From: Flaccisagitta enflata
Lineage: Eukaryota
Reading direction: 5' to 3'
Length of the DNA: 64,000 bases
Assembly (NCBI GenBank): GCA_965153355.1
Contig: OZ231126.1
Coordinates: 25,916,001-25,980,000, forward strand
Each line of letters opens with the position of its first letter. Position 1 is the first letter of the stretch. The notes under the pieces were generated by a model. It was not told the origin of the DNA. It made no database searches and saw nothing but the letters and a program-made list of their open reading frames with translations. The position numbers and the translations under genes were made by a program. This document shows, one piece after another, positions 13,255 through 61,909 of the stretch.

Positions 13255-14117
13255 AACAAGCCCAACAGGCCAACAGTCGCGTGCTAAGTTACAACACAAT
13301 TACACAACTTCATACTACACAACTTCATATTACATAACTTCATACAATATAATACATAATACAACTTCATACTACATAACTTCATACTACAACTTCATAT
13401 TACATAACGTCTGTCCCAAAAAAAGTTACATTCTGAACCAATAACGAGTGTCCAATAAAAAGTTGACAATATACCCAAAATACCCAAAATACCCAAAAAT
13501 ACCCAATGATACCCAAAAATACCCAAAAACACCTGAAGATACCCATAGATACTCAAAAATACTCGAAAATACCCAAAAGTACCCAAAAGTATCTGAAGGT
13601 ACTCTAAAATCCCCTAAGTACCTAAAATAACTTAAAAATGACCAAAATTACCCAAAAATACCCAAAAACACCCAAAAATACAGAAAAATAACCAAAAATA
13701 CTCAAAAATATATAAAAAACAAGGCCGGATACACGGCAATCCAGTCGCGGACGGTTGGGCAGGAGCAGTAATGCGAAAACCGCTCGGAATTCAACAATGT
13801 GACGGACGGACCGACGGACCGACGGACCGACGGACCGACCTACCGACCTACCGACCGACACGGCAAGGTGTAGAGTCGCGTGTCCGCGACTAAAAACCAA
13901 AAGTACCTGAAAGTATCTTAAAATACCTTAAGTACCTAAAATTACTTAAGTACCCTAAAGTACCCTGAAGTACCCTGAAATACCTTAGAGTACCTTTAAA
14001 TACCTTAAAAAACCTTAAAAAGTCATAATTTCAAAAACGTGACGGACGGACCGACGGACCGACCTACCGACCGACCGACACGGCAAGGTGTAGAGTCGCG
14101 TGCACGCGACTAAAAAA
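13255..14117 (-). mobile_element. Long family A element with internal tandem arrays, hosting a nested copy
   Basis: AGTCGCGTGCACGCGACTAAAAAA at the right end, AACAAGCCCAACAGGCCAACAGTCGCGTGC at the left end, internal ACAACTTCAT and TACCCAAAA arrays. Confidence 0.8.
13714..13896 (-). mobile_element. Family A element nested in 13255-14117
   Basis: Close reverse-complement match to 3677-3830; inserted in an A-run. Confidence 0.85.
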
Positions 14118-14586: not shown

Positions 14587-14760
14587 TTTTTAGTTGCGGA
14601 CACGCAACTCTATAAGAGGCTCTGTCCGTCCGTCCGTCCGTCCGTTGGTCGGTCGGTCGGTCGGTCCGTTGGTGAGCACGAGTCAAAAAGTGGGAAAACG
14701 CGCACATCCGCCCCGCCCACCAGTTCGCAACTGGTGGCCGTGTATCCGGCCTTGTTTTTT
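14587..14760 (+). mobile_element. Family A element (AGTTGCGGAC subfamily)
   Basis: Complete termini; duplicated at 17972-18145. Confidence 0.85.
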
Positions 14761-26754: not shown

Positions 26755-26936
26755 GCACGAGACTTGGGTAGACGTGTATCCGGCCTTGTTTTTAGTCGCG
26801 GACACGCGACTCTACACCTCGCTGTGTCGCTCCGTCGGTCGGTCCGTCGATAACATTTTTGAATTGCGAGCAGTTTTCGCATTACTGCTCCTGCCCAACC
26901 GTCCGCGACTGTCCTGCCGTGTATCCGGCCTTGTTT
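26755..26936 (+). mobile_element. Family A element (26789-26936) joined head-to-tail to an orphan 3' end (26755-26790)
   Basis: Junction reads ...GTGTATCCGGCCTTG-TTTTT-AGTCGCGGACACGCGACT... Confidence 0.8.
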
Positions 26937-30307: not shown

Positions 30308-30948
30308 CTAAGCGTAGATCATATCAAGAGCAGAGGCGTTTTCCGTTATGTGCTTCACTCTAGAATATTCATCGATGACTTGGCCAATCAGTGGTGAACG
30401 ATGCTCCATACTATTGAATCTTTTACGCGCAAATTCTGTGATATGGGCCTTGATCGGCGGGATTCCACTGCAATCGTGGAGATCGTCAATTGAGACATAT
30501 GCTGGAGTTCTCAAGATGACGCGTAGGGCTTGATTTTGAATCAGTTGTAACTTTTTGATGTGACAATCTGCTGCGTTGACGATGCAAAGGCTGCAATATT
30601 CGAAAAGGGAGCGAATGGTAGACTTATATAACTTAGCGATGACATCCGGTTTGAGGGTAGTTGACATGGACGATATTGCTCGTAGTAGGTTGAGTCTTTT
30701 GTATGATTTTGAGACTATTTTTCGCGTTTGTGGCTCCCATGTAAGTCTTGTGTCAAGCGTGACCCCCAGGAAGTCTGCTTCCTCCGACAGCGAAATTCCT
30801 TCCCCAAAGATGTTTATGGAGACATTGTTCCTTGTTACTTCATCTTTGTGTCTTGGGCATTTGGTAAACAGAATCAACTTTGACTTGTGCGGGCTGAGGG
30901 TCACCTGCCACTTCCGGCACCACTCTTCCAGTTTTTCTACTTCTCTTC

Positions 30949-30951
<3 letters not shown>
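30308..30951 (-). mobile_element. 5'-truncated non-LTR retrotransposon (Jockey/I-group LINE), C-terminal part of RT ORF2
   Basis: Translation includes WCRKWQVTLSPHKS, FLGVTLDTRLTW, LYKSTIRSLFEY and IQNQALRVIL, typical of late RT/thumb motifs. The stop is followed almost immediately by an (AAC)n tail; the 5' end abuts a (CT)n tract. Confidence 0.9.
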
Positions 30952-31039
<88 letters not shown>

Positions 31040-31591
31040 GAGAGACAGAGAGAGAGACAGAGAGAGAGACAGAGAGAGACAGAGAGGGAACAAGAAATTG
31101 AATGCGTTGACCTTTATTGATCGCAATGGACCAATCAGAAACGAGTTTCACAGTTTCTCTCTCTCTCTCTTGCTTTTTCGATGAATGCTTTTCTATTTCG
31201 CTTTTCTTTCCTTTATTTCTTTTCCTCCTTTCCTTCAATGAAACCACTTTGGGCCAATCAGAGAAGTTGACGTTATGCGGACCAATCAGCGGCCGGCGAT
31301 GGTAGGCTTTCTCAAGCCTGAGAGAGAGGCAAAAAAAAAAAAAAAAGTGTCGCAAATGAGGCTCGACCCCGCGATCTGCCAAAACGTCCAAAAATTCTTC
31401 CAAAAAGCCCCGACTCCAAAAAATCAGTTTTGAACCCAAATAAATCCTGAGGTTGCATTCATTCAATCGTGATCTCCTTGCAAACGAAAGTCTTTGCCCT
31501 TTTCGCTTTGGGATATATTTTCTCTCTCTTTTTTCTCCCCATTAGGGTGAATGTGAAACTTAAAGTGGCAGCGAATGTGGCGGTTTGAAAG

Positions 31592-38195: not shown

Positions 38196-38906
38196 GGGGC
38201 ATCCTCTGAATCACGAAATTCGTGCTTAAGTTAAAATCATTTCCACTGAAGCACACCCTAGTGCTTCAGTGGAATAAAAACTAACTAGTGCCTGTTGCAA
38301 TTCGAGCTTCAGTGGAATTGGAAGTAACTCATTTTGTCACAGTAGAAAAGATAGTCTATGTAATTTTTGTTAATGCTCATATGAAGGAATCTAGTAATCC
38401 CCTCCTTCCCATCTCTCTCTCTATTTCTCCTCTAATTTTTTCTCCTTTGATGTAAAAAAAAATATATGCTTATTTTTCATTATTTTGAAAAAAAACAATG
38501 GCATGTAACTTATTGTCCTTCAAAAAAACAAAAATTTATAGGAGAGGAATTAGTAAAGGAAAAGATTTTATGATAATAGAAAGAAAAAATTTGAAATAAA
38601 AAGAATATAAAGATATTCAAGAATGATAATTTAAATAAAGAAAATAAAGAAACAATTCTGAATTTAAAGAAATCAAATAAGTTCCTTACTATACTAAAAT
38701 ATTTGCAACCAGTCAAAAAAAAAACCCTAGTAACTTCTAATTTCATTGCAGTAGAATAGAAGCCAATTGCAGTATGAAAAGATGTCAAGAGTCAATCCAC
38801 TGAAGCACGAATTCCAATTCCACTGAAGCACGACGTCGTGCTTCAGTGGAATGGGCCTTGACTGGCCTAATTTCCAGCCCAGAGTTCGTGATTCAATGGA
38901 TAGGCC
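38196..38906. mobile_element. Merlin-like non-autonomous element
   Basis: GG...CC termini, 22-bp imperfect TIR ending TGAATCACGAA, perfect 8-bp TSD AATCACGC, subterminal TCCACTGAAGCAC repeats. Confidence 0.75.
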
Positions 38907-44412: not shown

Positions 44413-45231
44413 TGCCTAAAGTTTCCCCCTTCAGGGACGATTTGTCTCACGAGTTATTTAAATGAACCAACTTTTTTTCCAGATCGTCTAACTGACCAAC
44501 TCGCGAAGAAGTGAGCTAGAATCATTTCACGACTTACGTCAACAATATCATACTTGCTATCGAAGTGTAGAAACTATGTGAATGTTTCTCATAGAAATGA
44601 AACGCAATCAGTTCTCCTCAGTATATCCACGCATAAAAAATACTCACGAAACAGAATCTAAAAAATCGTTCTTTCTCAATCTAACCTAAAACTAAAGCAA
44701 ACTGTTAACCAAAAGTAGTTGAGGACGAATAATTGTTACCTGAATAAATTGTGTAAACAAAATACAACTAAACGAGACTGAATTCATGGCAACCCTATTC
44801 CCACTTATCTGGGCAGGGGCAGTGATAAAAAAAAACAACTCATTCAGGAAGGAAAACAGGACTATTAACGAAGAGGGGTGAGACTGTCTAAAAGCCATTG
44901 TTGCAAAAAGTTTAGAGATCGTTATCATTCTCTGAGAAGACATTGAAAGATCAAATGATCAATCGAGTCGTCGGTGAGAATTCTAGACTACACAATCCTG
45001 AATTGCGGCTGCCTAGTATACAATCGTGAAACCTGAATAGCATTCGACGGCTCTCATATCGTGTCTAAGAATGGAATCTCTCTCTCTCTCTCTCTCTCTC
45101 TGGATAAGAGAAAAGGGGACTGGAAGCTCAAACGCATTTTCACTTCTACCTTTCTCTCGTGCTTTGCCTCCCAACGTACTTCTGAATAGTATCAAAATAG
45201 TTTCTCCTACGAGCCCATCAGACGTCTAAGA

Positions 45232-47571
45232 ATGGAAGATGACCATTCAATAAGATTCGATCCAAAAGACAAGGGACAAACTGAATCTCCAGACGACACA
45301 AAAACACATAAATGTAATGTCTGTCTTTTTTCATTTTCTCAAAAAAACCAACTCAAATCACACATCAGGACTCACTTGAAAATGCAAACCTCGGAAAAAA
45401 TATTCCAATGTGAATTATGTCCTGCTACTTTTTCCCAACGGTCACATCTGACAACACATATCAGAACTCACACTGGAGAAACACCTTTCAAATGCGAACA
45501 ATGTCCGTCCTCTTTCTCGCAAAAAGTTCATTTTACCACGCACATCAGAACTCACACCAAAGAAAAACCTTTCAAGTGTGAGTTATGTCCTTCTGCCTTC
45601 TCACAACGAGCCCATTTGAAAAACCATGCAAAGGTTCATGCTGGAGGAAAGGCATACAAATGTAAATTGTGCCCATCTTCATTTTCTCAAAGGAGTCATT
45701 TAACAATGCATATAAGAACTCATACTGGAGGAAAACCATACAAATGTAAATTTTGTCCATCTGCTTTCTCTGATCGCAGTGCTTTGGCAAACCATGTCAA
45801 AACACACAATAGGGAAAAACCATTCAAATGTGATTTTTGTCCATCTGCTTTCTCTCAAAAGGCTTATTTGCAATCTCATGTGAGAAGACATACTGGAGAA
45901 AAACCGTACAAGTGTGATTTATGTCCATACGCTTGTACTCAAAGTAGCAGCTTAACAATGCATATCAGAACTCACACAGGGGAGAAACCGTTCAGATGTG
46001 ATATTTGTTCGTATACATGCTCTGGAAGTAGTGCGTTAAGACAGCATGTCAGAAATCACACTGGGGTAAGATCTTTCAATTGCACAAAATGTTCATCCTC
46101 TTTCTCTAGTAGCAGCGCTTTTAGGAGGCACAAAATGACTCACTCCGGAAAAAAGGCAAACATATCAAAAAACTGCTCATCCTACCTCTATGAAAGTGAT
46201 GATTTCACGCAATCTGAAAGAACTGGTGAAGAGGAGCCATTCAAATGTGAGTTATGCCTACTTTCTTTTTCTCAACAACATCTTTTGCACAAACATAGCA
46301 AGATTCACACCGGAGAAAAATCTTACAAATGTGATTCATGCCCATTTACCACATCCAACAGCAGAAATCTGAGAATCCATGGAAGAACTCACATTGCAGA
46401 AAATCGAAAAGAAAAACTGTACAATTGCGATACTTGTTCATATGCTTCTTTTGACAGTGCTTCTTTAAGAAAACATATCAGAACACACACTGGGGAAAAA
46501 CCATTCAAATGTCAACATTGTCCATCAGCTTTCTCTCAAAGAAGTTATTTGAGAAGGCATGCGAGAACGCATACTGGAGAAAAACCATACAAGTGTGACA
46601 TATGTCCATATGCCTCTGCAGGTGGAAGTTCTTTGATTGCCCATGTTAGAACACACACTGGGGAAAAACCTTTCAAATGTGAATTTTGTCCATCTGCTTT
46701 TTCTCAAAAGATTCATTTGAAAACGCATGTGAGGATACATACCGGAGAAAAACCATATAAGTGTGATGAATGTCCATATGCTTCTTCTGAAAGTGGCGCT
46801 TTAAGGAGACATGTTAGAAGTCACACCAAACAAAAGTCAAATAAATCTGACACAAAAGAAACGCCAAACATGTGTGAGATACGTCCCTCTATGATTTCTC
46901 AATCAACTTGCTTGGAAAAACCTGCCAGATTTTCAACTGAGCAAATGCCATACATATGTGAATTCTGTCCATTTGCTACTTCTACTCACTGGAGATTGAC
47001 AGTACATGTCAGAACTCACACTGGTGAAAAACCATACAAATGCGGAACCTGCCCAGCCTCCTTTTCTTCGAGTAGTGCATTAAGAGTACACCTAAAAAGT
47101 CACACAAACGAAAAGCCATACAAATGTGAGTTCTGTCCATATGCCTTTTCTGTAAAGGGAAATCTAACAGCCCATGTCAGAACTCACACCGGGGAAAAAC
47201 CTTATAAGTGTGATGTGTGTCCATCTTCTTTCCGTGCTCGTGGTTCCTTAACAATTCATAAGAGAACTCATTCGGGGGAAAGACCATTTAAGTGTGAATC
47301 GTGTCCTTCTGTTTTTCCTCGTCGTTCTCAGTTAACGCTCCATTCCAGAACACACACCGGGGGAAAACCTTACAAATGCAATTCTTGTCCGTCTTCCTTT
47401 TCTCGCAGCAGTGCCTTGAAGAGGCACAAAAAAGTACACACTAAAGAGAAGCCATTTAAATGTGAATCTTGTCCATCGACCTTCTCTCGTACCTGTGATT
47501 TAACAAAACATGTCAAAATTCATAGTGAGGAAAAACATATCAATGCGGATGTACTACCCAATGCCCCATAG
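45232..47571 (+). CDS. Tandem C2H2 (Kruppel-type) zinc-finger protein, 779 aa, 24 intact fingers plus 2 degenerate ones
   Basis: Uninterrupted ORF with repeated CxxC-x12-HxxxH motifs and TGEKP(F/Y) linkers. Only ~27 aa precede the first finger and no KRAB/ZAD/BTB domain is visible, so upstream exons are possible. Confidence 0.95.
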   Translation: MEDDHSIRFDPKDKGQTESPDDTKTHKCNVCLFSFSQKNQLKSHIRTHLKMQTSEKIFQCELCPATFSQRSHLTTHIRTHTGETPFKCEQCPSSFSQKVHFTTHIRTHTKEKPFKCELCPSAFSQRAHLKNHAKVHAGGKAYKCKLCPSSFSQRSHLTMHIRTHTGGKPYKCKFCPSAFSDRSALANHVKTHNREKPFKCDFCPSAFSQKAYLQSHVRRHTGEKPYKCDLCPYACTQSSSLTMHIRTHTGEKPFRCDICSYTCSGSSALRQHVRNHTGVRSFNCTKCSSSFSSSSAFRRHKMTHSGKKANISKNCSSYLYESDDFTQSERTGEEEPFKCELCLLSFSQQHLLHKHSKIHTGEKSYKCDSCPFTTSNSRNLRIHGRTHIAENRKEKLYNCDTCSYASFDSASLRKHIRTHTGEKPFKCQHCPSAFSQRSYLRRHARTHTGEKPYKCDICPYASAGGSSLIAHVRTHTGEKPFKCEFCPSAFSQKIHLKTHVRIHTGEKPYKCDECPYASSESGALRRHVRSHTKQKSNKSDTKETPNMCEIRPSMISQSTCLEKPARFSTEQMPYICEFCPFATSTHWRLTVHVRTHTGEKPYKCGTCPASFSSSSALRVHLKSHTNEKPYKCEFCPYAFSVKGNLTAHVRTHTGEKPYKCDVCPSSFRARGSLTIHKRTHSGERPFKCESCPSVFPRRSQLTLHSRTHTGGKPYKCNSCPSSFSRSSALKRHKKVHTKEKPFKCESCPSTFSRTCDLTKHVKIHSEEKHINADVLPNAP

Positions 47572-53286: not shown

Positions 53287-53505
53287 TTTTTAGTCGCGTG
53301 CACGCGACTCTACAACCCGCTTTGTCCGTCGGTTGGTTGGTCGGTTGGTCGGTTGGTCGGTTGGTCGGTCGGTCGGTCACACTTTACTTTTTTTTATGAT
53401 TTTATTTATTTGACCTCACTGCTCCTGCCCAAATGGTCTGGTGACCTCAAATATGGCCCCTGCCCACCCGCACGCGACTTCGGTAGCCGTGTATCCGGCC
53501 TTGTT
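53287..53505 (+). mobile_element. Family A element
   Basis: Perfect AGTCGCGTGCACGCGACT palindrome, (GGTC/GGTT)n, complete 3' end. Confidence 0.9.
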
Positions 53506-53933
53506 GATAAACTCTTTCTCATACCAGATTAAAGGCGATCATTTAGAGTATCTTAAAATGAATCCCAAACAAGAAAATCAAATCTTGTTTTATAAAGAAT
53601 ACTAATGAAATTATAAAATATATATAATGAAAAAAAACTACTATAATCACACTCTTTTTCATATCTGCAATCTGTATCTATATATGATTGTGCTTTTATT
53701 TTTAACAATATATTTTTCTTTTTTATCTTTTTTGATTTTTCACTTTTCATTTTTTGAGAATGATTGAAATCAAAATAGGCAAAAAGTGGTTGGTTTTGTC
53801 TTTGACTTTTCACTTTGAAAAAAAAAAGATAAGTTTGGGTAAATGATCCTTAAATATCACATATGCAAAGTTACAATTATGATTATAATCATAATCATCC
53901 TTGTTAAGGTCATTGAAGCGCAGGGAGAGTGTG

Positions 53934-54939
53934 CATTACGTCCAGTGAAGCGCCCCAAACTTCGACTATGGCTCTCACCAATCCTACGACAGTTGAGGCT
54001 TGATAAAAAAATGTTCCATGCAAAATTTTGGGCCTCTGAGATAGCAGGAACCTTCGTTAGGGTGAGCTTGAAGTTTGTATTGAATTAGCATTGGAATCAA
54101 TATTTCTTTTATGCAAATTATGTCTCTGCCAAAGATTTCTATGTAAACTTCATGGTCACTAGCTTGTACTGAAATGACAATAAACAATAAAATCAGAACT
54201 CCACAAGTAGTTCTTATTGCGGGGCTGTCTTGGGCTTCCAATGACATCACTTTTGGTCTGAAAAAATTGCATCTTGCTGTCCGCGCCTTACCTTGAATTT
54301 TCCTTCAGCCAATGGGAAACCAAAAATTTCAAAGTGCTTAAATCTCTGTTTTGACTGCAGATTTGAAATCTGCAGAAAAAACTGTTAATTGAAAGTGCTT
54401 TCCTTTTTTCAATATTTCAACTAGAAGGTGCTCAAAATAAGTGTCAAAGTTTGCAAAACTTACCTTTCTCTTTTATTTATATGTAAAATCGCCGAACTTA
54501 CTTTTTTTTATATCTTTAAGATGAATTTTGACTATGATCCCAAAGGAATATTGAAAAAAGGAAAGCACTTTCAATTAACAGTTTTTTCTGCAGATTTCAA
54601 ATCTGCAGTCAAGACAGAGATTTAAGCACTTTGAAATTTTTGGTTTCCCATAGGCTGAAGGAAAATTCAAGGTAAGGCGCGGACAGCAAGATGCAAATTT
54701 TTCAGACCAAAATTGATGCCATTAGAAGCCCAAGACAGCCCCACAACAAGAACTACTTGTAGAATTCTGATTTTATTGCTTTTAGTCATTTAGGTACAAG
54801 CTAATGGTCACCCTAACAAAGGTTCCCGCAATTCCAGAGGCCTGAAATTTTGCATGGGATATTTTTTTGCCAAGCCTCAACTATGGTAAGATTGGTGAGA
54901 GTCAGTGTCAAAGTTTGGGGCGCTTCATTTGACGTAGTG
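53934..54939. mobile_element. 1-kb CACTA-like foldback element
   Basis: CATTACGTC / GACGTAGTG termini (reverse complement CACTACGTC), 2-bp TG flanks, arms of ~400-480 bp around a ~130-bp spacer. Confidence 0.8.
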
Positions 54940-55950: not shown

Positions 55951-56457
55951 TTTTTTAGTCGCGTGCACGCGACTTTACACCTTGCTCTGTCAGTTGGTCC
56001 ATCGGTCGGTCCGTCGGTCCGTCGGTAATATTTCTAAATTTTGAATGTTTTTAACATTTTTTGATATCTTTTTACATTTTTTACCATCTTTTAACACTTT
56101 ACCTTTTTAACATTTTTTAACATGTTTTAGCATTCTTTTAACATTTTTTAACATTTTTTAACATTTTTTAACATTTTCTACCATTTTCTAACCTTTTTTC
56201 AACATGTTTAACATTTTGATATGTTTTTAGTCGCGGACAAGCGACTCTATAAGAGGCTTTGTCCGTCCGTCCCTTGGTCGGTTGGTTGGTCGGTCGGTCG
56301 GTTGGTCGGTCCGTGGTGATCGAGTTGGAAAGTGTGAAAATGCGCATTTGCGCCCCTGCCCACCCGTCCGCGACTGGTATTGGCCGTGTATCCGGCCTTG
56401 TTGCTCTTTTGTTTGTCATTTCCAGACGCACGCGACTGTTGCCCTCTTGGGCTTGTT
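55951..56457 (+). mobile_element. Family A element with TTTTAACA array, hosting nested copy 56224-56402
   Basis: Two 5' ends (55951, 56224) and two 3' ends (56402, 56457) in nested order. Confidence 0.8.
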
Positions 56458-57614
56458 GTGAATTGCGTTAAGCAATTCACTATAACTCCACAAAATGTTT
56501 TTCTTCTTTTTCCTTTTTTTTTTCTTTTTTTTCCTTTTTTTTTCCTTTTTTTTTCTTCCACTCTCTTTGAAAATAGGGTTTTGTTTTTCACTGTCTTTCC
56601 CTTGTCCTTCCCTTGTCTAACCCTATATGAAAACGGCTTCTGTTTCTTTGTCCTTCCCTTGTCTTTCCCCATATGAAAATGGCTTTTGTTTCTCTGTTCC
56701 CCTCTTGTCTTTCCCTATATGAATATGGGTAATGTTTTTCTATTCTTCCCTTGTCTTTCCCTATGTGAATATGGGTAATGTTTTTCCATTCTTCCCTTGT
56801 CTTTCCATATGTCAATATGGGTAATGTTTTTCTATTCTTCCCTTGTCTTTCCCTATGTGAATATGGGTAATGTTTTTCTATTCTTCCCTTGTCTTTCCCT
56901 ATATGAATATGGGTAATGTTTTTCTGTTCTTCCCTTGTCTTTCCCTATGTGAATATGGGTAATGTTTTTCTGTTCTTCCCTTGTCTTTTCCTATGTGAAT
57001 ATGCGTTATGTTTTTCAGTTCTTCCCTTGTCTTTCCCTACATCAATATGGATAATGTTTTTTAATTCTTCCCTTGAATATGGGTAATAATTTTCAGTTCT
57101 ACCCTTGTCTTTCCCTATATCAATATGGCTTTTGTTTCTCTGTTCTTCTCTTGTCTTTCCCTATGTGAATATGGGTAATGTTTTTCTGTTCTTCCCTTGT
57201 CTTTTCCTATGTGAATATGCGTTATGTTTTTCAGTTCTTTCCTTGACTTTCCCTTTGTAAATATGGTTAATGTTTTTCAGTTCTTCCCTTGTCTTTCCCT
57301 ATGACAACATGGGTAATGTTTTTCTGGTCTTCCCTTGTCTTTCCCTAATTGACTATGGGTGATGTTTTTCACTTCTTCCCTTGTCTTTCCTTACATATGT
57401 AGGGGTAATTTTTTCAACTCATTCCTTGTCTTTCCCTATATGAATATGGGTAATGTTTTCCAGTTCTTCCCTTGTCTTTCCCTACATCAATATGGCTTTT
57501 GTTTCCCTGTTCCTCCCTTGTCTTTCCCTATACAAATATGGGTAAGGTTTTTCAGTTCTTCCCTTGTCTTTCCCTATATGAATACGAGTAATGTTTTTCA
57601 GTTCTTCCCTTGTC

Positions 57615-59196
57615 TTTTTAGTCGCGTGCACGCGACTCTATAACCCGCTCTGTCGGTTGGTCCGTCCGTCTGTCCGTCCGTCCGTAACACTTTGCTTTTT
57701 TTTGTCGTTTTACGTCATTTTAGGGTATTTTACATCATTTTAAGTCATTTTAAGTCATTCTAAGTCATTTCCAGTCATTTTCAGTTAATTTTAGTCACTT
57801 AAGTCATTTTGTCATTTTTTGTCATTTTTGTCATTTTATATCATTATAAGTCATTTTAAGTCATTCTTAGTCATTCTAAGTTATTCTAAGTCATTCTAAG
57901 TCATTACAAGTCATTCTAAGTCATTACAAGTCATTCTAAGTCATTCTAAGTCACTCTAAGTTATTTTTTGGCTTTTGAAGTTTTTAGTAACACTTTGCTT
58001 TTTTGCATCGTTATTGGTCAATTTTGGTCGTCTGGAGTCATTTTGAGTCATTTTTTTGTTGTTTTTGGTCATTTTTGGTTGCGTTTAGTTATTTTTGGTT
58101 GCTTTTAGTCATTTTTGGTCATTTTTGATCATTCATGTCACTTTGTACATTTAAACCATTTGTGTCATTTTTGGGCATTAGAAATAGTTTTAAGTCATTT
58201 TAAGTCATTTTGGAACATTTCAGGTCATTTTTGGTCATTTAACATGTTTTTTTGGTTTTTGTTTTTTTTTTTTTTTTTGTTTTTGGTTTTTTTTTGTTTT
58301 TTTGTTTTTTGTTTTTGTTTTTTTTGTTTTTGGGTTTTTGGTTTTTGTTATTTTATTTTTTTAAAATTTTTTTGTTTTTTTATTTTTTGGTCATTTATGT
58401 TTTTTGGTACGTTATGGTCATTTATGTTTTTTGGTATGTTTTTGTCATATATGTCATGTCAAGTCTGCTGGTTTCAAGTTGGCTGATTAAGGTCTCCTGG
58501 TTTAAGTCTGCTGGTCAAGTCTGCTGGTTTAAGTCTGCTGGTTTAAGTTGGCTGGTTTAAGTTGGCTGGTTTAAGTTGGCTGGTTTAAGTCTGCTGGTTT
58601 AAGTCTGCTGGTTTAAGTCTGCTGGTTTAAGTCTGCTGGTTTAAGTCTGCTGGTTTAGGTCTGCTGGTCTAAGTCTTCTGGTTTAAGTCTGCTGGTTTGA
58701 GTCTGCTGGTTTGAGTCTGCTGGTTTGAGTCTGCTGGTTTGAGTCTGCTGGTTTGAGTCTGCTGGTTTGAGTCTGCTGGTTTGAGTCTGCTGGTTGAAGT
58801 ATGCTGGTTTAAGTATGCTGGTTTAAGTATGCTGGTTTAAGTCTGCTGGTTTGGGTCTGGTTTGAGTCTGGTTTGAGTCTGGTTTGAGTCTGGTTCATGT
58901 CTGGTTCATGTCTGGTTTAAGGCTGGTTTATGTCTGGTTTATGTCTGGTTTATGTCTGGTTTATGTCTGGTTTATGTCTGGTTTATGTCTGGTTTTGGTC
59001 TGGTTTACATCTGGTTTTGGTCTGGTTTAGGTCTGGTTTAATTCTGGTTTGAGTCTGGTTTGAGTCTGGTTTTAGTCTGGTTTGAGTCTGGTTTGGGTCT
59101 GGTTTAAGTCTGATTTTCGATAAAAAGATAGAATAAGGAGTCAGGTCAGTTCAGTTATTTTTGTCCTGCACGCGACTTATAAGTGTTGGCCTTGTT
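57615..59196 (+). mobile_element. 1.6-kb family A element with several expanded minisatellites, inserted in the 46-bp satellite
   Basis: AGTCGCGTGCACGCGACT start, GCACGCGACT...GGCCTTGTT end; internal AAGTCATTCT, AAGTCTGCTGGTTT and GTCTGGTTT arrays; satellite resumes on both sides. Confidence 0.85.
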
Positions 59197-60154
59197 CTAT
59201 TTGAATATGGGTAATGTTTTTCAGTTCTTCCCTTGTCTTTCCCTATGTGAATATGGGTAATGTTTTTTCTGTTCCTCCCTTGTCTTCCCTATACATTTAT
59301 GGGTAATGTTTTTCAATTCTTCCCTTGAATATGGGTAATGTTTTTCAGTTCTTCCCCTGTCTCTCCCCGTATGAATATGGGTAATATTTTTCAGTTCATC
59401 CTTTGTCTTCCCCTACATCAAAATGGCTTTCATTCATCTGTACTTCCCTTGTTTTTCCCTATATGAATTTGGGTAATGTTTTTTAATTCTTCCCCTATAT
59501 CAATGAGGCTTTTGTTTCTCTATCCTTCCCTTGTCTTTCCACGTATGAATATGGGTAATGTTTTTCAGTTCTTCCTTTGTCTTTCCCTGTATGAATATGG
59601 GTAATGTTTTTTATTTTTTCCCTTGTCTCTCCCTATATCAATATGGCTTTTGTTTCTCTGTTCTTCTTGTCTTTCCCTATATGAATATAGGTAATGTTTT
59701 TCAGTTCTTCCCCTGTCTTTCCCTGTATGAATATGGGTAATGTTTTTCAGTTCTTCCCTTGTCTTCCCCTACATCAATATGGCTTTTGATTCTCTGTTTT
59801 TCCCTTGTCTTTTCCTATATGAATATGGGTAATGTTTTTCAGTTCTTCCCTTGTCTTCCCCTACATCAATATGGTTTTTGTCTCTCTGTTCATCCTTTGT
59901 CTTTCCCTATATGAATATGGGTAATGTTTTTCAAATTTTCCCTTATCTTCCCCTTTATCAATATGGCTTTTGTTTCTCTATCCTTCCCTTGTCTTTCCCT
60001 GTATAAATATAGGTAATGTTTTTCAGTTCTTCCCTTGTCTCTCCCTATTTGAATATGGGTATTGTTTCTCAGTTCTCCCCTTATCTTTCCCTTTATCAAT
60101 ATGGCTGTTGTTTCTCTGATCTTCCCTAGTCTTTCCCTGTATGAATATAGGTAA

Positions 60155-60482
60155 TAGCCTAACAACAATAAATGCAATGTCATAGAAAAGTTCTCTATCA
60201 AAGAGATACGGCCCAAAATCATGTTTACAGATGGTTCATAAAAAAAATTCAGCCCTAGAACCCCTATAAATTGGCGCCGCCACCCATCCCCTTTCCCATA
60301 ATAAAATATAGGCAAAAACCCTTCCTGTACATTTTCTATAGGATATGAGGTGGGTGGCGGCGGCAATTTTTAGAGGCCTCAGGACCAAATTTTTGTTGTG
60401 GTTCATCTGTATACATGATTTTGAGTCATATCCCTCTGATAGAGAACTTTCCCATGACTTTGCATATATTCTTGTTATGCTA
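60155..60482. mobile_element. hAT-like foldback MITE inserted in the satellite
   Basis: TAGCCTAACAA / TTGTTATGCTA termini, ~140-bp arms, 8-bp TSD ATAGGTAA/ATGGGTAA (one mismatch). Confidence 0.85.
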
Positions 60483-61909
60483 ATGGGTAATGTTTTTCAG
60501 TTCTTCCCTTGTCTTCCCCTACATCAATATGGCTTTTGTTTCTCTGTTCTTCCCTTGTCTTTCCCTATATGAATATGGGTAATGTTTTTTAGTTCTTCCC
60601 TTGTCTTCCCCTACATCAATATGGCTTTTGTTTCTTTGTTCTTCCCTTGTCTTTCCCTGTATGAATATGGGTAATGTTTTTCAGTTCTTCCCTTGTCTTC
60701 CCCTACATCAATATGGCTTTTGTTTCTCTGTTTTACCCTTGTCTTTCCCTGTGTGAATATGGGTAATGTTTTTCAGTTCTTCCCTTGTCTTCCCGTACAT
60801 CAATATGGCTTTTGTTTCTCTGTTTTACCCTTGTCTTTCCCTGTATGAATATGGGTAATGTTTTTCAACTCTTCCCTTGTCTTTCTTATTTCATTATGGC
60901 TTTTGTTTCTCTGTTCATCCCTTGTCTTTCCCTGTATGAATATGGGTAATGTTTTTCAGTTTTTCTTTGTCTTACCCTATATCAATACAGCATTTTTTCT
61001 CTGTTCTTCCCTTGTTTTTCCCTATATGAATATGTGTATTTTTCAGCTCCTCTTTGTCTCTCCCTATATCAATATGGCTTTTGTTTCTCTGTCCTTCCCT
61101 TGTCTTTCCCTATATAGATATGGGTAATGTTTTTCAGTTCTTCCCTTGTTTTTCGCTTTATCAGTATGGTTTTTTTTTCTCTGTTTTTCCTTTCTCTCTC
61201 CCTTAATGAATATGGGTAATGTTCTTCAGTTCTTCCCTTGTCTTTCTCAACATGAATATGGCTTTTATTTCTCTATTATTTCCTCATCGTATGTTCTTGT
61301 TTTACTATTATAAAATAAAATTTAAGTATTTCCACTAAACATGTTGTCAATTGCACCTGCAATTCACATGTTTGGCGACAGCCACTGGTTTTTATAGTGG
61401 TCAAAATGACGAAATTTTTGAAAATCGTTCACGAAAGTTTTTGAAGCAACTTTCAACACTGGGCAACTCGACTCTTTAACGTTTACAGAAGTTGTATACT
61501 CAACGTGTTTTGGACTCACAGTAACAGTGTTTTTATACCAACTTGTCTTTTTTTTTCACTTAAAAAAGCTTGTAGTTTTGTAGTCTTGTAGAGTATGGCG
61601 TTGTGTGCTCTGTCGCTTATGACGAATAAAAGAAATTATATATCCAAGCAAATAAATATTCATATGCAATCAAATGATTATTCATAGGATCCCCCTTTAT
61701 TATCATGGACACTGACTGCTGCTAGAATTGAAAAAGACAGGATGACCTCCAACTTTGACTTCCTCGAGGGATATTTGAGCCCGTGTCTGTCTGTCTGTCT
61801 GGCTATCTTTCTGTCTCCGACTGTCTTACTGGCTGTCTCTATTTAGAATACAAACCGGACGTGCTTTTCCAAATAACGATGAAGACATGGACCATTCATT
61901 CTCTGGAAC

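What the first reader, a model, noticed from the sequence alone, without database searches (positions are those of the whole stretch)
56456..61393. A whole 46-bp satellite array appears to be the cargo of one Helentron-like element
Seen: the array is bracketed on the left by TT-GTGAATTGC-gttaa-GCAATTCAC-TAT and on the right by GCAATTCAC, a 5-nt spacer, the hairpin TGGC-gaca-GCCA and CTGGTTTTT. This is the same grammar as the small family A elements, but with unrelated sequence. Known: Helentron-derived DINE-1/HINE elements carry central tandem repeats that can expand into satellites. Inference: this is a separate family captured during satellite formation, and possibly still mobilisable as a unit.
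Basis: partly seen in the sequence, partly recalled or inferred. Interest (0 to 1): 0.8.

Follow-up and report, generated by a model that had tools for sequence, protein, structure and literature searches.

The report
Tandem-repeat array inside a HINE-like transposon
A 46-bp tandem-repeat array about 2.8 kb long sits between two ends that have the typical layout of a non-autonomous rolling-circle transposon (a Helentron-derived "HINE"), which is a known way for satellite-like DNA to arise, and it could not be tested here whether the unit has other copies or can still move.

Summary
The 46-bp array has about 61 monomers (2.8 kb of repeat within 4.9 kb).

- **Left end:** T-GTGAATTGC-gttaa-GCAATTCAC-TATAAC, followed by a T/C-rich simple repeat.
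- **Right end:** GCAATTCACA, a 4-bp-stem hairpin, then CTGG-TTTTT.
- **Inverted match:** 10 bp, perfect.
the right end is also a near-palindrome.

A 9-mer inverted match alone is not significant (28% of shuffles). The full layout appeared in 0 of 20,000 shuffles and 0 of 2,920 real window pairs. Every structural part published for HINEs is present. The window's abundant "family A" uses the same layout with unrelated sequence.

The array is not one clean cargo. A family A element (57618-59196) and a foldback MITE (60156-60482) are inserted in it. Part of it has become a 92-bp dimer repeat. The "TT" at the left is the last two bases of an abutting family A element.

The decisive test was impossible. 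Copy number, empty sites and an autonomous partner remain untested.

Best reading: an old HINE copy of a second family whose central repeats expanded in place. It is a new member of a known kind, and "still mobilisable" is unsupported.

The parts
55956..56457 (+). Context, not part of the element: a composite family A HINE-like element. Its left end lies at 55956, a 10-bp repeat array follows, and a complete smaller family A element is nested at about 56228-56403. Its right end GCACGCGACT...GGGCTTGTT stops at 56457, directly against the 5' end of the element described here.
56457..56466 (+). 5' subterminal inverted repeat (subTIR), TGTGAATTGC
   Evidence: perfect 10-bp inverted match to 61359-61368
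56472..56480 (+). Inverted repeat GCAATTCAC, complementary to the 5' subTIR across a 5-nt loop. It is followed by TATAAC (family A has CTATAAC at the same place).
   Evidence: In one search the DNA fold gives a 9-bp stem at -9.2 kcal/mol, z -5.1, and 0 of 200 shuffles fold as well.
56498..56557 (+). T/C-rich simple repeat with periods of 10, 11 and 21. It sits where HINEs carry their microsatellite.
56558..57617 (+). Array block 1: degenerate edge monomers, then mostly A-type 46-bp monomers without higher-order structure
   Evidence: adjacent identity 0.86, i/i+2 identity 0.84
57618..59196 (+). Later insertion: a complete family A HINE-like element. It has a T-run, the palindrome AGTCGCGTGCACGCGACT, CTATAA, a (GTCC)n microsatellite, repeat arrays of 10, 14 and 11 bp, and the right end GCACGCGACT...GGCCTTGTT. 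It sits in a T-run of a monomer with no target duplication. Boundaries are ±2 nt because of the Ts.
59197..60155 (+). Array block 2: mixed A and B monomers
60156..60482 (.). Later insertion: a 327-bp foldback (MITE-like) element, flanked by a 9-bp duplication of array sequence (ATAGGTAAT / ATGGGTAAT)
   Evidence: (331 aligned columns at 75.5% identity to its own reverse complement)
60483..61285 (+). Array block 3: alternating B/A monomers forming a 92-bp higher-order repeat, more degenerate towards the right edge
   Evidence: adjacent identity 0.73, i/i+2 identity 0.90
61286..61345 (+). Non-repetitive, AT-rich right flanking segment between the last monomer and the terminal structures
   Evidence: (no other copy in the window)
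61346..61354 (+). GTCAATTGC, a near-copy (8 of 9) of the 5' subTIR. It forms a near-palindrome with the 3' subTIR across the loop acct.
   Evidence: (I2)
61359..61368 (+). 3' subTIR, GCAATTCACA
61373..61384 (+). 3' stem-loop TGGC-gaca-GCCA, 4 nt after the 3' subTIR
   Evidence: It is present in the minimum-energy fold, but that whole 59-nt fold is only weakly better than shuffles (z -1.9).
61385..61393 (+). CTGG plus TTTTT, the proposed 3' terminus. Family A ends in CTTG plus T2-5 at the same place.

Best explanation
The stretch 56457-61393 is one copy of a non-autonomous Helentron-type rolling-circle transposon (a HINE). It belongs to a family different in sequence from the window's abundant family A.

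The proposed history, which is inferred rather than shown, is as follows:
1. The element inserted into a T-rich site. It carried a left flank (subTIR, complementary inverted repeat, simple repeat), a few 46-bp central repeats, and a right flank (subTIR, stem-loop, T-run).
2. The central repeats then grew in place by unequal exchange or slippage to about 61 monomers. This gave a homogeneous left block and a 92-bp dimer block on the right.
3. Later a family A HINE and a foldback MITE landed inside the array. Another family A element came to lie head-to-tail against its 5' end.

Shown: the terminal architecture, its statistical excess over chance, the array structure, and the nested insertions. 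Inferred: that the ends were ever used by a Helentron transposase, the order of events, and growth in place. Nothing shows that the unit is still mobile.
For: 1. All the structural parts that the literature lists for HINEs are present and in the right order. The parts are a 5' subTIR, an inverted repeat complementary to it a few bases away, a microsatellite, central tandem repeats in one orientation, a 3' subTIR followed by a palindrome, and T strings at the boundary. They are listed in the passages of PMC4067079 seen and in the Results of PMC7492417 read. Here the subTIR is 10 bp and perfect, the inverted repeat is 9 bp after a 5-nt gap, and the hairpin starts 4 nt after the 3' subTIR. The oyster elements have 11-12 bp subTIRs, 7-12 bp inverted repeats and gaps of 1-12 bp.
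2. Chance does not give this. The palindrome with arm recurrence occurred in 4 of 20000 shuffles and 0 of 2920 real window pairs. The full layout occurred in 0 of 20000 and 0 of 2920.
3. A blind scan of the window for the same layout returned 7 rows. Three were family A pairings, three were overlapping registers of one site at 38243-38841, and one was this element. There were 0 hits in 20 Markov-1 windows on both strands.
4. The genome demonstrably holds active-looking HINEs with this layout. There are 9 family A left ends and 14 right ends in 64 kb.
5. Family A left and right subTIRs co-vary within elements: AGTCGCGTGC/GCACGCGACT, AGTCGCGGAC/GTCCGCGACT, and AGTTGCGGAC/GTTCGCAACT (the last 9 of 10).
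6. One family A copy sits in a T-run of the array with no target duplication.
7. The 5' end of the element begins exactly where a family A right end stops (56457/56458). The same head-to-tail arrangement is seen between two family A elements at about 26790/26800.
8. All 39 core matches of the monomer are in one orientation and lie only between the two ends.
Against: - Only one copy of each end and one array exist in the 64 kb. Family membership in the sense of a dispersed repeat is therefore unproven.
- The subTIR is shorter (10 bp) than the published 11-13 bp.
- The 3' hairpin has only a 4-bp stem, and the fold of the right end is not clearly better than shuffles (z -1.9, with 9 of 200 shuffles as good).
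- The 5' T string is only TT, and it is shared with the neighbouring element, so the true 5' boundary and target site cannot be read.
- No empty site could be examined.
- No Rep/helicase ORF lies in the window. Of 77 ORFs of at least 90 aa scanned against Pfam, only a C2H2 zinc-finger protein passed curated cut-offs.
Confidence: 0.65

Rival explanations
1. Composite origin. The left end and the right end are real HINE ends but come from two copies of the family. Unequal recombination between their central arrays, or growth of an array across two neighbouring copies, joined them. The present unit was then never transposed as such.
For: The array has three domains with different organisation. 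The left block is A-type only, the middle is mixed, and the right is a 92-bp dimer. The same 32-bp deletion monomer occurs at 57067 and 59319, which shows large internal duplications.
Against: All monomers share one orientation, and between-block identity (0.80-0.81) equals within-block identity (0.79-0.84). One array that grew in place explains the data as well. No second copy is known.
Confidence: 0.12
2. A cut-and-paste (TIR-type) miniature transposon carrying tandem repeats. It would have 10-bp terminal inverted repeats and would be unrelated to Helentrons.
For: There is a perfect 10-bp inverted repeat at the two sides. MITEs that carry tandem repeats are discussed in the literature cited in PMC7492417 (Discussion).
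Against: No clean target-site duplication flanks the 10-mers; the flanks read ...GCTTGT | and | TGTTTGG. The extra features are specific to HINEs and are shared with family A in the same window. These are the inverted repeat next to the 5' repeat, the hairpin and T-run outside the 3' repeat, the TATAAC after the left palindrome, and the simple repeat.
Confidence: 0.08
3. Coincidence. This is an ordinary satellite-like array in unique DNA. A chance palindrome lies on one side, and a chance recurrence of its arm lies next to a trivial hairpin and a T-run on the other.
For: A bare 9-mer inverted match between the flanks is common (28% of shuffles, 11.5% of real window pairs). Perfect palindromes with stems of at least 9 bp are more frequent in this window than in random sequence (35 rows from about 15 sites). 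A 4-bp hairpin and T5 are cheap in T-rich DNA. The case was chosen by eye from a very large scan.
Against: The joint layout occurred in 0 of 20000 shuffles and 0 of 2920 real pairs, and in 0 of 20 random windows in the blind scan. The second near-palindrome at the right end was not used in those tests. The exact abutment to a family A right end also argues against chance.
Confidence: 0.1

Closest known systems
Cg_HINE elements of the Pacific oyster and the related bivalve Pearl elements (Vojvoda Zeljko et al. 2020, PMC7492417; Results and Discussion part 1 read)
   Same: The module order is the same: left flank with subTIR, complementary inverted repeat and microsatellite; central satellite-like repeats in a fixed orientation; right flank with subTIR and palindrome. 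Targets are T-rich with no duplication. Several families unrelated in sequence coexist in one genome. The window's family A even shares the GTCC-type microsatellite named in that paper.
   Different: - The monomer here is 46 bp, against 138-181 bp (that survey only looked at 100-500 bp).
- There are about 61 monomers here, against an average of 3.6 and a maximum of 29.3. In base pairs, 2.8 kb lies within their range.
- The subTIR is 10 bp rather than 11-12 bp.
- The simple repeat is T/C-rich, not a tetranucleotide.
- The right end is also palindromic.
- No sequence identity was found. The 9-mers of these ends are absent from the one supplementary file held as text.
DINE-1 / HINE / Helentron as defined by Thomas et al. 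2014 (PMC4067079; passages only)
   Same: It has subTIRs, a short inverted repeat 3-22 bp from the 5' subTIR, a microsatellite, central repeats, a 3' stem-loop, insertion at TT, and 2-5 Ts at the boundaries. 'Palindromic subTIRs' are reported there for Culex Helentrons.
   Different: The subTIRs there are 13 bp. Those families are defined by many copies and by autonomous partners that share the ends. Neither could be examined here.
Helitron2 (as summarised in PMC4067079)
   Same: [quoted passage not shown] That is what this element shows: a palindrome at the left, and a near-palindrome plus a second hairpin at the right.
   Different: Only the one-sentence description was seen. No Helitron2 sequence or protein was compared.
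Family A of this window
   Same: The grammar is identical, position for position. It runs: T-run, palindromic 5' subTIR, (C)TATAAC, simple repeat, tandem repeats, 10-bp 3' subTIR, a 4-6 nt gap, a 4-bp-stem hairpin, C-T-(T/G)-G, T-run.
   Different: There is no significant sequence similarity at either end. Family A repeats have periods of 10-14 bp. Family A has at least 9 left and 14 right ends in 64 kb, against one each here. Family A right ends are not palindromic at the subTIR.

Membership tests
HINE (non-autonomous Helentron) | Subterminal inverted repeats at the two ends | tested here: met
   There is a perfect 10-bp match between 56457-66 and 61359-68. This is shorter than the published 11-13 bp.
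HINE (non-autonomous Helentron) | A short inverted repeat complementary to the 5' subTIR, a few bases downstream of it | tested here: met
   A 9-bp inverted repeat follows a 5-nt loop. The fold has z -5.1.
HINE (non-autonomous Helentron) | A microsatellite in the left flank | tested here: met
   A T/C-rich simple repeat lies at 56498-56557 with periods 10, 11 and 21. It is not the tetranucleotide type common in oyster elements.
HINE (non-autonomous Helentron) | Central tandem repeats in one orientation relative to the flanks | tested here: met
   All 39 of 39 core matches are on the + strand between the ends.
HINE (non-autonomous Helentron) | A palindrome or stem-loop after the 3' subTIR | tested here: met
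   TGGC-gaca-GCCA lies 4 nt after the subTIR. The stem is only 4 bp, so this is weak on its own.
HINE (non-autonomous Helentron) | Insertion within TT or a T-rich site, T strings at the boundaries, no target-site duplication | tested here: inconclusive
   The 3' end has T5. The 5' end has only TT, shared with the abutting family A element. No duplication is visible. No empty site was available because no genome is held.
HINE (non-autonomous Helentron) | A dispersed multi-copy family with conserved left and right flanks | not testable with these tools
   There is one copy in the window. The collection scans do not cover the organism: even the abundant family A end gave 0 hits in viral contigs.
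HINE (non-autonomous Helentron) | An autonomous Helentron (Rep/helicase/endonuclease) sharing the termini | not testable with these tools
   No Helitron-like or helicase domain was found in 77 window ORFs of at least 90 aa or among 51 ORFs of at least 150 aa. The rest of the genome was unavailable.
Cut-and-paste TIR MITE | Terminal inverted repeats flanked by a target-site duplication | tested here: not met
   No matching duplication lies next to the 10-mers. By contrast, the foldback insert at 60156-60482 shows a 9-bp duplication.

The most novel reading that the evidence does not exclude
This could be a low-copy second Helentron-derived family, with palindromes at both ends, that is still moved as a roughly 5-kb unit with about 61 monomers on board. 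Whole satellite arrays, not just a few seed repeats, would then be copied to new sites by rolling-circle transposition. That would be a direct snapshot of how a transposon seeds a satellite.
Probability: 0.08. Interest if true: 0.55.

Novelty: new member of a known kind. Interest (0 to 1): 0.27.

Why it matters
HINE or DINE-1-type elements carrying tandem repeats are already an accepted route from transposon to satellite DNA in Drosophila and bivalves. This locus would add one more family.

It would also be a clear example of a central array grown about twenty-fold beyond the usual few monomers while both ends stay intact, with later insertions that give a relative time order. It is useful for annotating this genome's repeats. 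It could matter more if genome-wide data showed other copies with variable monomer numbers. As it stands it confirms a known pattern and does not open a new one.

Tried and rejected
- **Whole-genome search:** no genome is held for this window.
- **Earlier findings:** One search was rejected for a missing field.
- **Sequencing runs:** two runs of 'organism A' hold 0.55 and 0.50 of the sampled words. Eighteen marine or seawater metagenome runs hold 0.14-0.40. None was laid, so nothing is concluded from them about copy number or habitat.
- **Read laying:** I did not resend it.
- **Collection scans with the 20-nt monomer core:**
  - Metagenome contigs gave 1 locus with a single match in a fermentation metagenome.
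  - Genome contigs gave 1 locus with a single match in a bacterial MAG.
  - Viral contigs gave 0.
  - Single matches are not arrays, so these are taken as chance.
- **Scans with the end motifs:** the left palindrome with a free loop gave 2 unrelated viral contigs. The right end gave 0.
- **Control scan:** the abundant family A end also gave 0 in viral contigs. These collections therefore do not cover the organism, and absence there says nothing.
- **Sequence homology between the ends of this element and family A:** not significant. I dropped the idea that the shared outer bases of the subTIRs (GT....TGC) show common descent.
- **Literature string searches:**
  - The end sequences of family A and of this element appear in no paper of the library.
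  - The 9-mers and monomer cores are absent from the held supplements of PMC7492417 and PMC8268682.
  - A search for '46 bp' + 'satellite DNA' + 'Helitron' gave 2 unrelated papers.
- **Paper reading:** it closed, so the supplements of PMC11136912 (satellitomes of five oyster species) were not seen. They could hold a related monomer.
- **Taxon:** the nearest Atlas clusters to a jockey-like reverse-transcriptase fragment are eukaryotic, with Arthropoda commonest. This is a lead only, and the organism was not identified.
Full report
**What is in the sequence.**
- The left palindrome GTGAATTGC-gttaa-GCAATTCAC lies at 56458-56480. It is unique in the window at up to 3 mismatches.
- The right string TGGCGACAGCCACTGGTTTTT lies at 61373-61393 and is also unique.
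- GCAATTCAC occurs three times in 64 kb, twice in the left palindrome and once at 61359-61367. The expected number is 0.49.
- The inverted match between the two sides is in fact 10 bp: TGTGAATTGC at 56457-66 against GCAATTCACA at 61359-68.
- TRF reports the 46-bp array in three pieces, 56603-57617, 59197-60155 and 60491-61273, and a 92-bp period over 59488-61274.
- A 20-nt core of the monomer has 39 matches at up to 3 mismatches. All are on the + strand, all lie between 56721 and 61227, and none lies elsewhere in the window.

**Is it more than chance?** A bare 9-mer inverted match between the two flanks is not significant. It occurs in 5535 of 20000 Markov-1 shuffles of the two 161-bp flanks, and in 336 of 2920 pairs of real window segments at the same spacing. 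The flanks are T-rich and A-rich, which explains this.

The composite layout is a different matter:
- A perfect palindrome (stem of at least 9, loop of at most 12) on the left occurred in 199 of 20000 shuffles and 129 of 2920 pairs.
- Such a palindrome with its 3' arm recurring on the right occurred in 4 of 20000 and 0 of 2920.
- With a hairpin and T5 behind the arm it occurred in 0 of 20000 and 0 of 2920.

That script hit its time limit only after printing all results.

As a blind control I scanned the whole window, both strands, for the same layout. The scan gave 7 rows:
- 3 were family A pairings (53292-53471, 55957-56429 and a cross-pairing).
- 3 were overlapping registers of one site at 38243-38841.
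- 1 was the element in question.

Twenty Markov-1 windows gave 0 hits. One feature was not used in either test. The right end is itself a near-palindrome, GTCAATTGC-acct-GCAATTCAC (I2: 11 nt, 91% complementary). Both ends therefore carry a version of the same hairpin.

**What family A is.**
- *Left end:* a T-run, the 18-bp palindrome AGTCGCGTGCACGCGACT, CTAYAA, and a (GTCC)n-type microsatellite. There are 9 matches at up to 3 mismatches.
- *Right end:* GCACGCGACT, a few bases, a hairpin within GCCGTGTATCCGGC, then CTTGTT with up to five Ts. There are 14 matches of the hairpin motif. A second, shorter right-end type reads GCACGCGACT...TTGGCCTTGTT.
- *Co-variation:* the left and right 10-mers co-vary within elements. 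The pairs are AGTCGCGTGC with GCACGCGACT, AGTCGCGGAC with GTCCGCGACT (element at about 56228-56403), and AGTTGCGGAC with GTTCGCAACT (9 of 10, element at about 14590-14760). This is what functional subterminal inverted repeats should do.
- *Insertion behaviour:* one family A copy (57618-59196) sits inside the 46-bp array. The interrupted monomer stops after ...CTTGTCTTT plus Ts and resumes at CTATTTGAATATGGG. No array bases are duplicated, and the insertion lies in a T-run.
- *Agreement with the literature:* these features match the published definitions. The passages of Thomas et al. 2014 (PMC4067079) list subTIRs, an inverted repeat 3-22 bp from the 5' subTIR, a microsatellite, central repeats, a 3' stem-loop, TT targets and 2-5 boundary Ts. 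Vojvoda Zeljko et al. 2020 (PMC7492417, Results read) give subTIRs of 11-12 bp, inverted repeats of 7-12 bp after gaps of 1-12 bp, GTCY/GTCC/GTCK microsatellites, a right flank with subTIR plus palindrome, and no target duplication.

**The element in question, part by part.**
- *Left flank:* T-GTGAATTGC (5' subTIR), gttaa, GCAATTCAC (inverted repeat), and TATAAC (family A has CTATAAC at the same position). A 60-bp T/C-rich simple repeat follows at 56498-56557.
- *Array:* degenerate first monomers come next, then the array proper.
- *Right flank:* a 60-bp AT-rich unique stretch, the near-copy GTCAATTGC, acct, GCAATTCACA (3' subTIR), tgtt, TGGC-gaca-GCCA, CTGG, TTTTT.
- *Comparison with family A:* laid beside a family A right end, the order and spacing agree position for position. 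The order is a 10-mer, 4-6 nt, a 4-bp stem, a 4-6 nt loop, a stem, C-T-(T/G)-G, and a T-run. The sequences themselves are not significantly alike. Global alignment against 2000 shuffles gave p 0.13-0.91 for four right ends and 0.056-0.34 for four left ends.
- *Folds:* as single-stranded DNA the left palindrome folds at -9.2 kcal/mol (z -5.1). The right end folds into both hairpins, but the whole 59-nt fold is only weakly better than shuffles (z -1.9).

**The left boundary.** The same right-end type occurs at 13284(-) and 27946(-) followed by unrelated sequence, so the palindrome is not part of family A.

That family A element appears to start at 55956. It holds a 10-bp repeat array and a complete smaller family A element nested at about 56228-56403. 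The two elements therefore lie head to tail with no base between them. Two family A elements do the same near 26790-26802. This fits insertion into the T string at another element's boundary. It also means that the original target of the element cannot be read.

**The array.**
- Anchoring on the conserved CTTCCCTTGTCT gave 61 anchor points. Two monomer types exist: A (…TATGAATATGGGTAATGTTTTTCAGTT) and B (…TACATCAATATGGCTTTTGTTTCTCTGTT).
- Of the 61 anchors, 52 full-length monomers were compared. I left out truncated monomers, those cut by the two insertions, the first two anchors (56555 and 56596), and two double-length intervals.
- Left block: 20 monomers, adjacent identity 0.86, i/i+2 identity 0.84, so there is no higher order.
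- Right block: 15 monomers, adjacent 0.73 and i/i+2 0.90, which is a 92-bp B-A dimer.
- Middle block: 17 monomers, 0.74 and 0.83.
- Identity between blocks is 0.80-0.81.
- The array bases total 2823.
- The outermost monomers on both sides are the most degenerate.
- A 32-bp deletion variant recurs at 57067 and 59319, which shows larger internal duplications.
- A 327-bp foldback element lies at 60156-60482, aligning to its own reverse complement at 75.5%. It is flanked by a 9-bp duplication of monomer sequence, ATAGGTAAT / ATGGGTAAT.

The array is therefore old enough to have been hit twice and to have reorganised internally. It looks like growth in place rather than a freshly captured block.

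**What could not be tested.**
- Exact-pattern scans of the metagenome, prokaryote-genome and viral collections gave only isolated single matches or nothing.
- The very abundant family A end also gave nothing in viral contigs, so at least that collection does not cover the organism; the control was not run on the metagenome or prokaryote-genome collections.
- No Rep/helicase ORF is in the window. Of 77 ORFs of at least 90 aa with non-trivial composition, only a 793-aa C2H2 zinc-finger ORF passed Pfam cut-offs (ORF list).

Copy number, paired occurrence of the ends, empty sites and an autonomous partner are all open.

**Mechanism proposed.**
- *Shown:* the terminal architecture and its excess over chance, the one-orientation array, and the nested insertions.
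- *Inferred from the established model for Helentrons/HINEs (named papers above):* a Helentron Rep/helicase-endonuclease supplied in trans recognises the palindromic 5' subTIR and the 3' subTIR plus stem-loop. It copies the single strand between them by rolling-circle replication and inserts it at a TT without duplication.
- *Inferred from the array structure:* after insertion the few central repeats expanded by unequal exchange or slippage.
- *On mobility:* the Discussion of PMC7492417 cites a model in which mobility falls as repeat number rises. That makes a 4.9-kb copy with 61 monomers and two foreign inserts an unlikely active unit, even though its ends are intact.

**Comparison and novelty.** The closest known things are the oyster Cg_HINE and Pearl elements and Drosophila DINE-1. 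They share the module order, and several sequence-unrelated families coexist in one genome.

The differences are a short 46-bp monomer, a much higher monomer count (about 61 against a mean of 3.6 and a maximum of 29.3 in the oyster survey, which only considered 100-500 bp monomers), a 10-bp subTIR, a T/C-rich simple repeat, and palindromes at both ends. The last feature recalls the one-line description of Helitron2 in PMC4067079.

Six structural criteria were tested. Five are met and one, the target site, is inconclusive. The two criteria that make a family (multiple copies and an autonomous partner) could not be tested. I therefore file it as a probable new member of a known kind, not as a proven one.

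No printed match to the end sequences was found. The search '46 bp' + 'satellite DNA' + 'Helitron' gave 2 unrelated papers. Paper reading closed, so the supplements of the five-oyster satellitome paper were not checked.

**Verdict.**
- HINE-type element with a central array expanded in place: 0.65.
- Composite of two copies: 0.12.
- Chance: 0.10.
- TIR-type MITE: 0.08.

Interest is modest at 0.27. This is a tidy example of a known route from transposon to satellite, and its only potentially new aspect, mobilisation of a whole array, is untested and unlikely.

Noticed in passing
window 38243-38870: A third candidate with the same grammar and unrelated sequence. TT-CCACTGAAGCAC-accc/ta-GTGCTTCAGTGG lies on the left. 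CCACTGAAGCACG-ACGT-CGTGCTTCAGTGG lies on the right, followed by GGCC-ttgact-GGCC and a T-rich stretch. The two are about 600 bp apart with an AT-rich interior and no tandem repeats. The layout scan found it. Like the element studied, it has palindromes at both ends.
   Followed up: partly
window 60156-60482: A 327-bp foldback (MITE-like) insert inside the 46-bp array. It aligns to its own reverse complement over 331 columns at 75.5%. It is flanked by a 9-bp duplication, ATAGGTAAT / ATGGGTAAT.
   Followed up: partly
window 54306-54670: Another foldback-like element. It has long inverted arms that each contain the small palindrome CTGCAGATTT-N-AAATCTGCAG. Class unknown.
   Followed up: no
window 14590-14760, 56228-56403, 53292-53506: Family A subfamilies differ in their 10-bp subTIR, and the left and right copies change together within each element. 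This is natural compensatory evidence that these 10-mers are the recognised ends.
   Followed up: partly
window 26772-26802 and 56457/56458: HINE-like elements lie head to tail with only the T string between a right end and the next left end. This suggests that element boundaries are themselves preferred targets, or that read-through copies occur.
   Followed up: no
window 57618-59196: A single family A element carries several different short-period arrays in series, with periods of 10 bp, about 8 bp (T-rich), 27 bp, 14 bp and 11 bp. Together they are far longer than its flanks.
   Followed up: no
window 45190-47571 (+): An uninterrupted 793-aa ORF made of about 20 or more C2H2 zinc fingers (zf-H2C2_2 E 2.8e-165). 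It is the only clear protein-coding feature near the finding.
   Followed up: partly
window 30311-31147 (-): A fragment of a jockey-like non-LTR reverse transcriptase fused in frame to a (CT)n-derived low-complexity stretch. The nearest Atlas clusters are eukaryotic, with Arthropoda commonest. Pfam gave no hit at E 0.01 or better.
   Followed up: partly
whole window: The density of simple repeats is extreme. There are 215 TRF rows in 64 kb, including (CTTT)n, (GA)n and (TGA)n arrays of several hundred bases.
   Followed up: no
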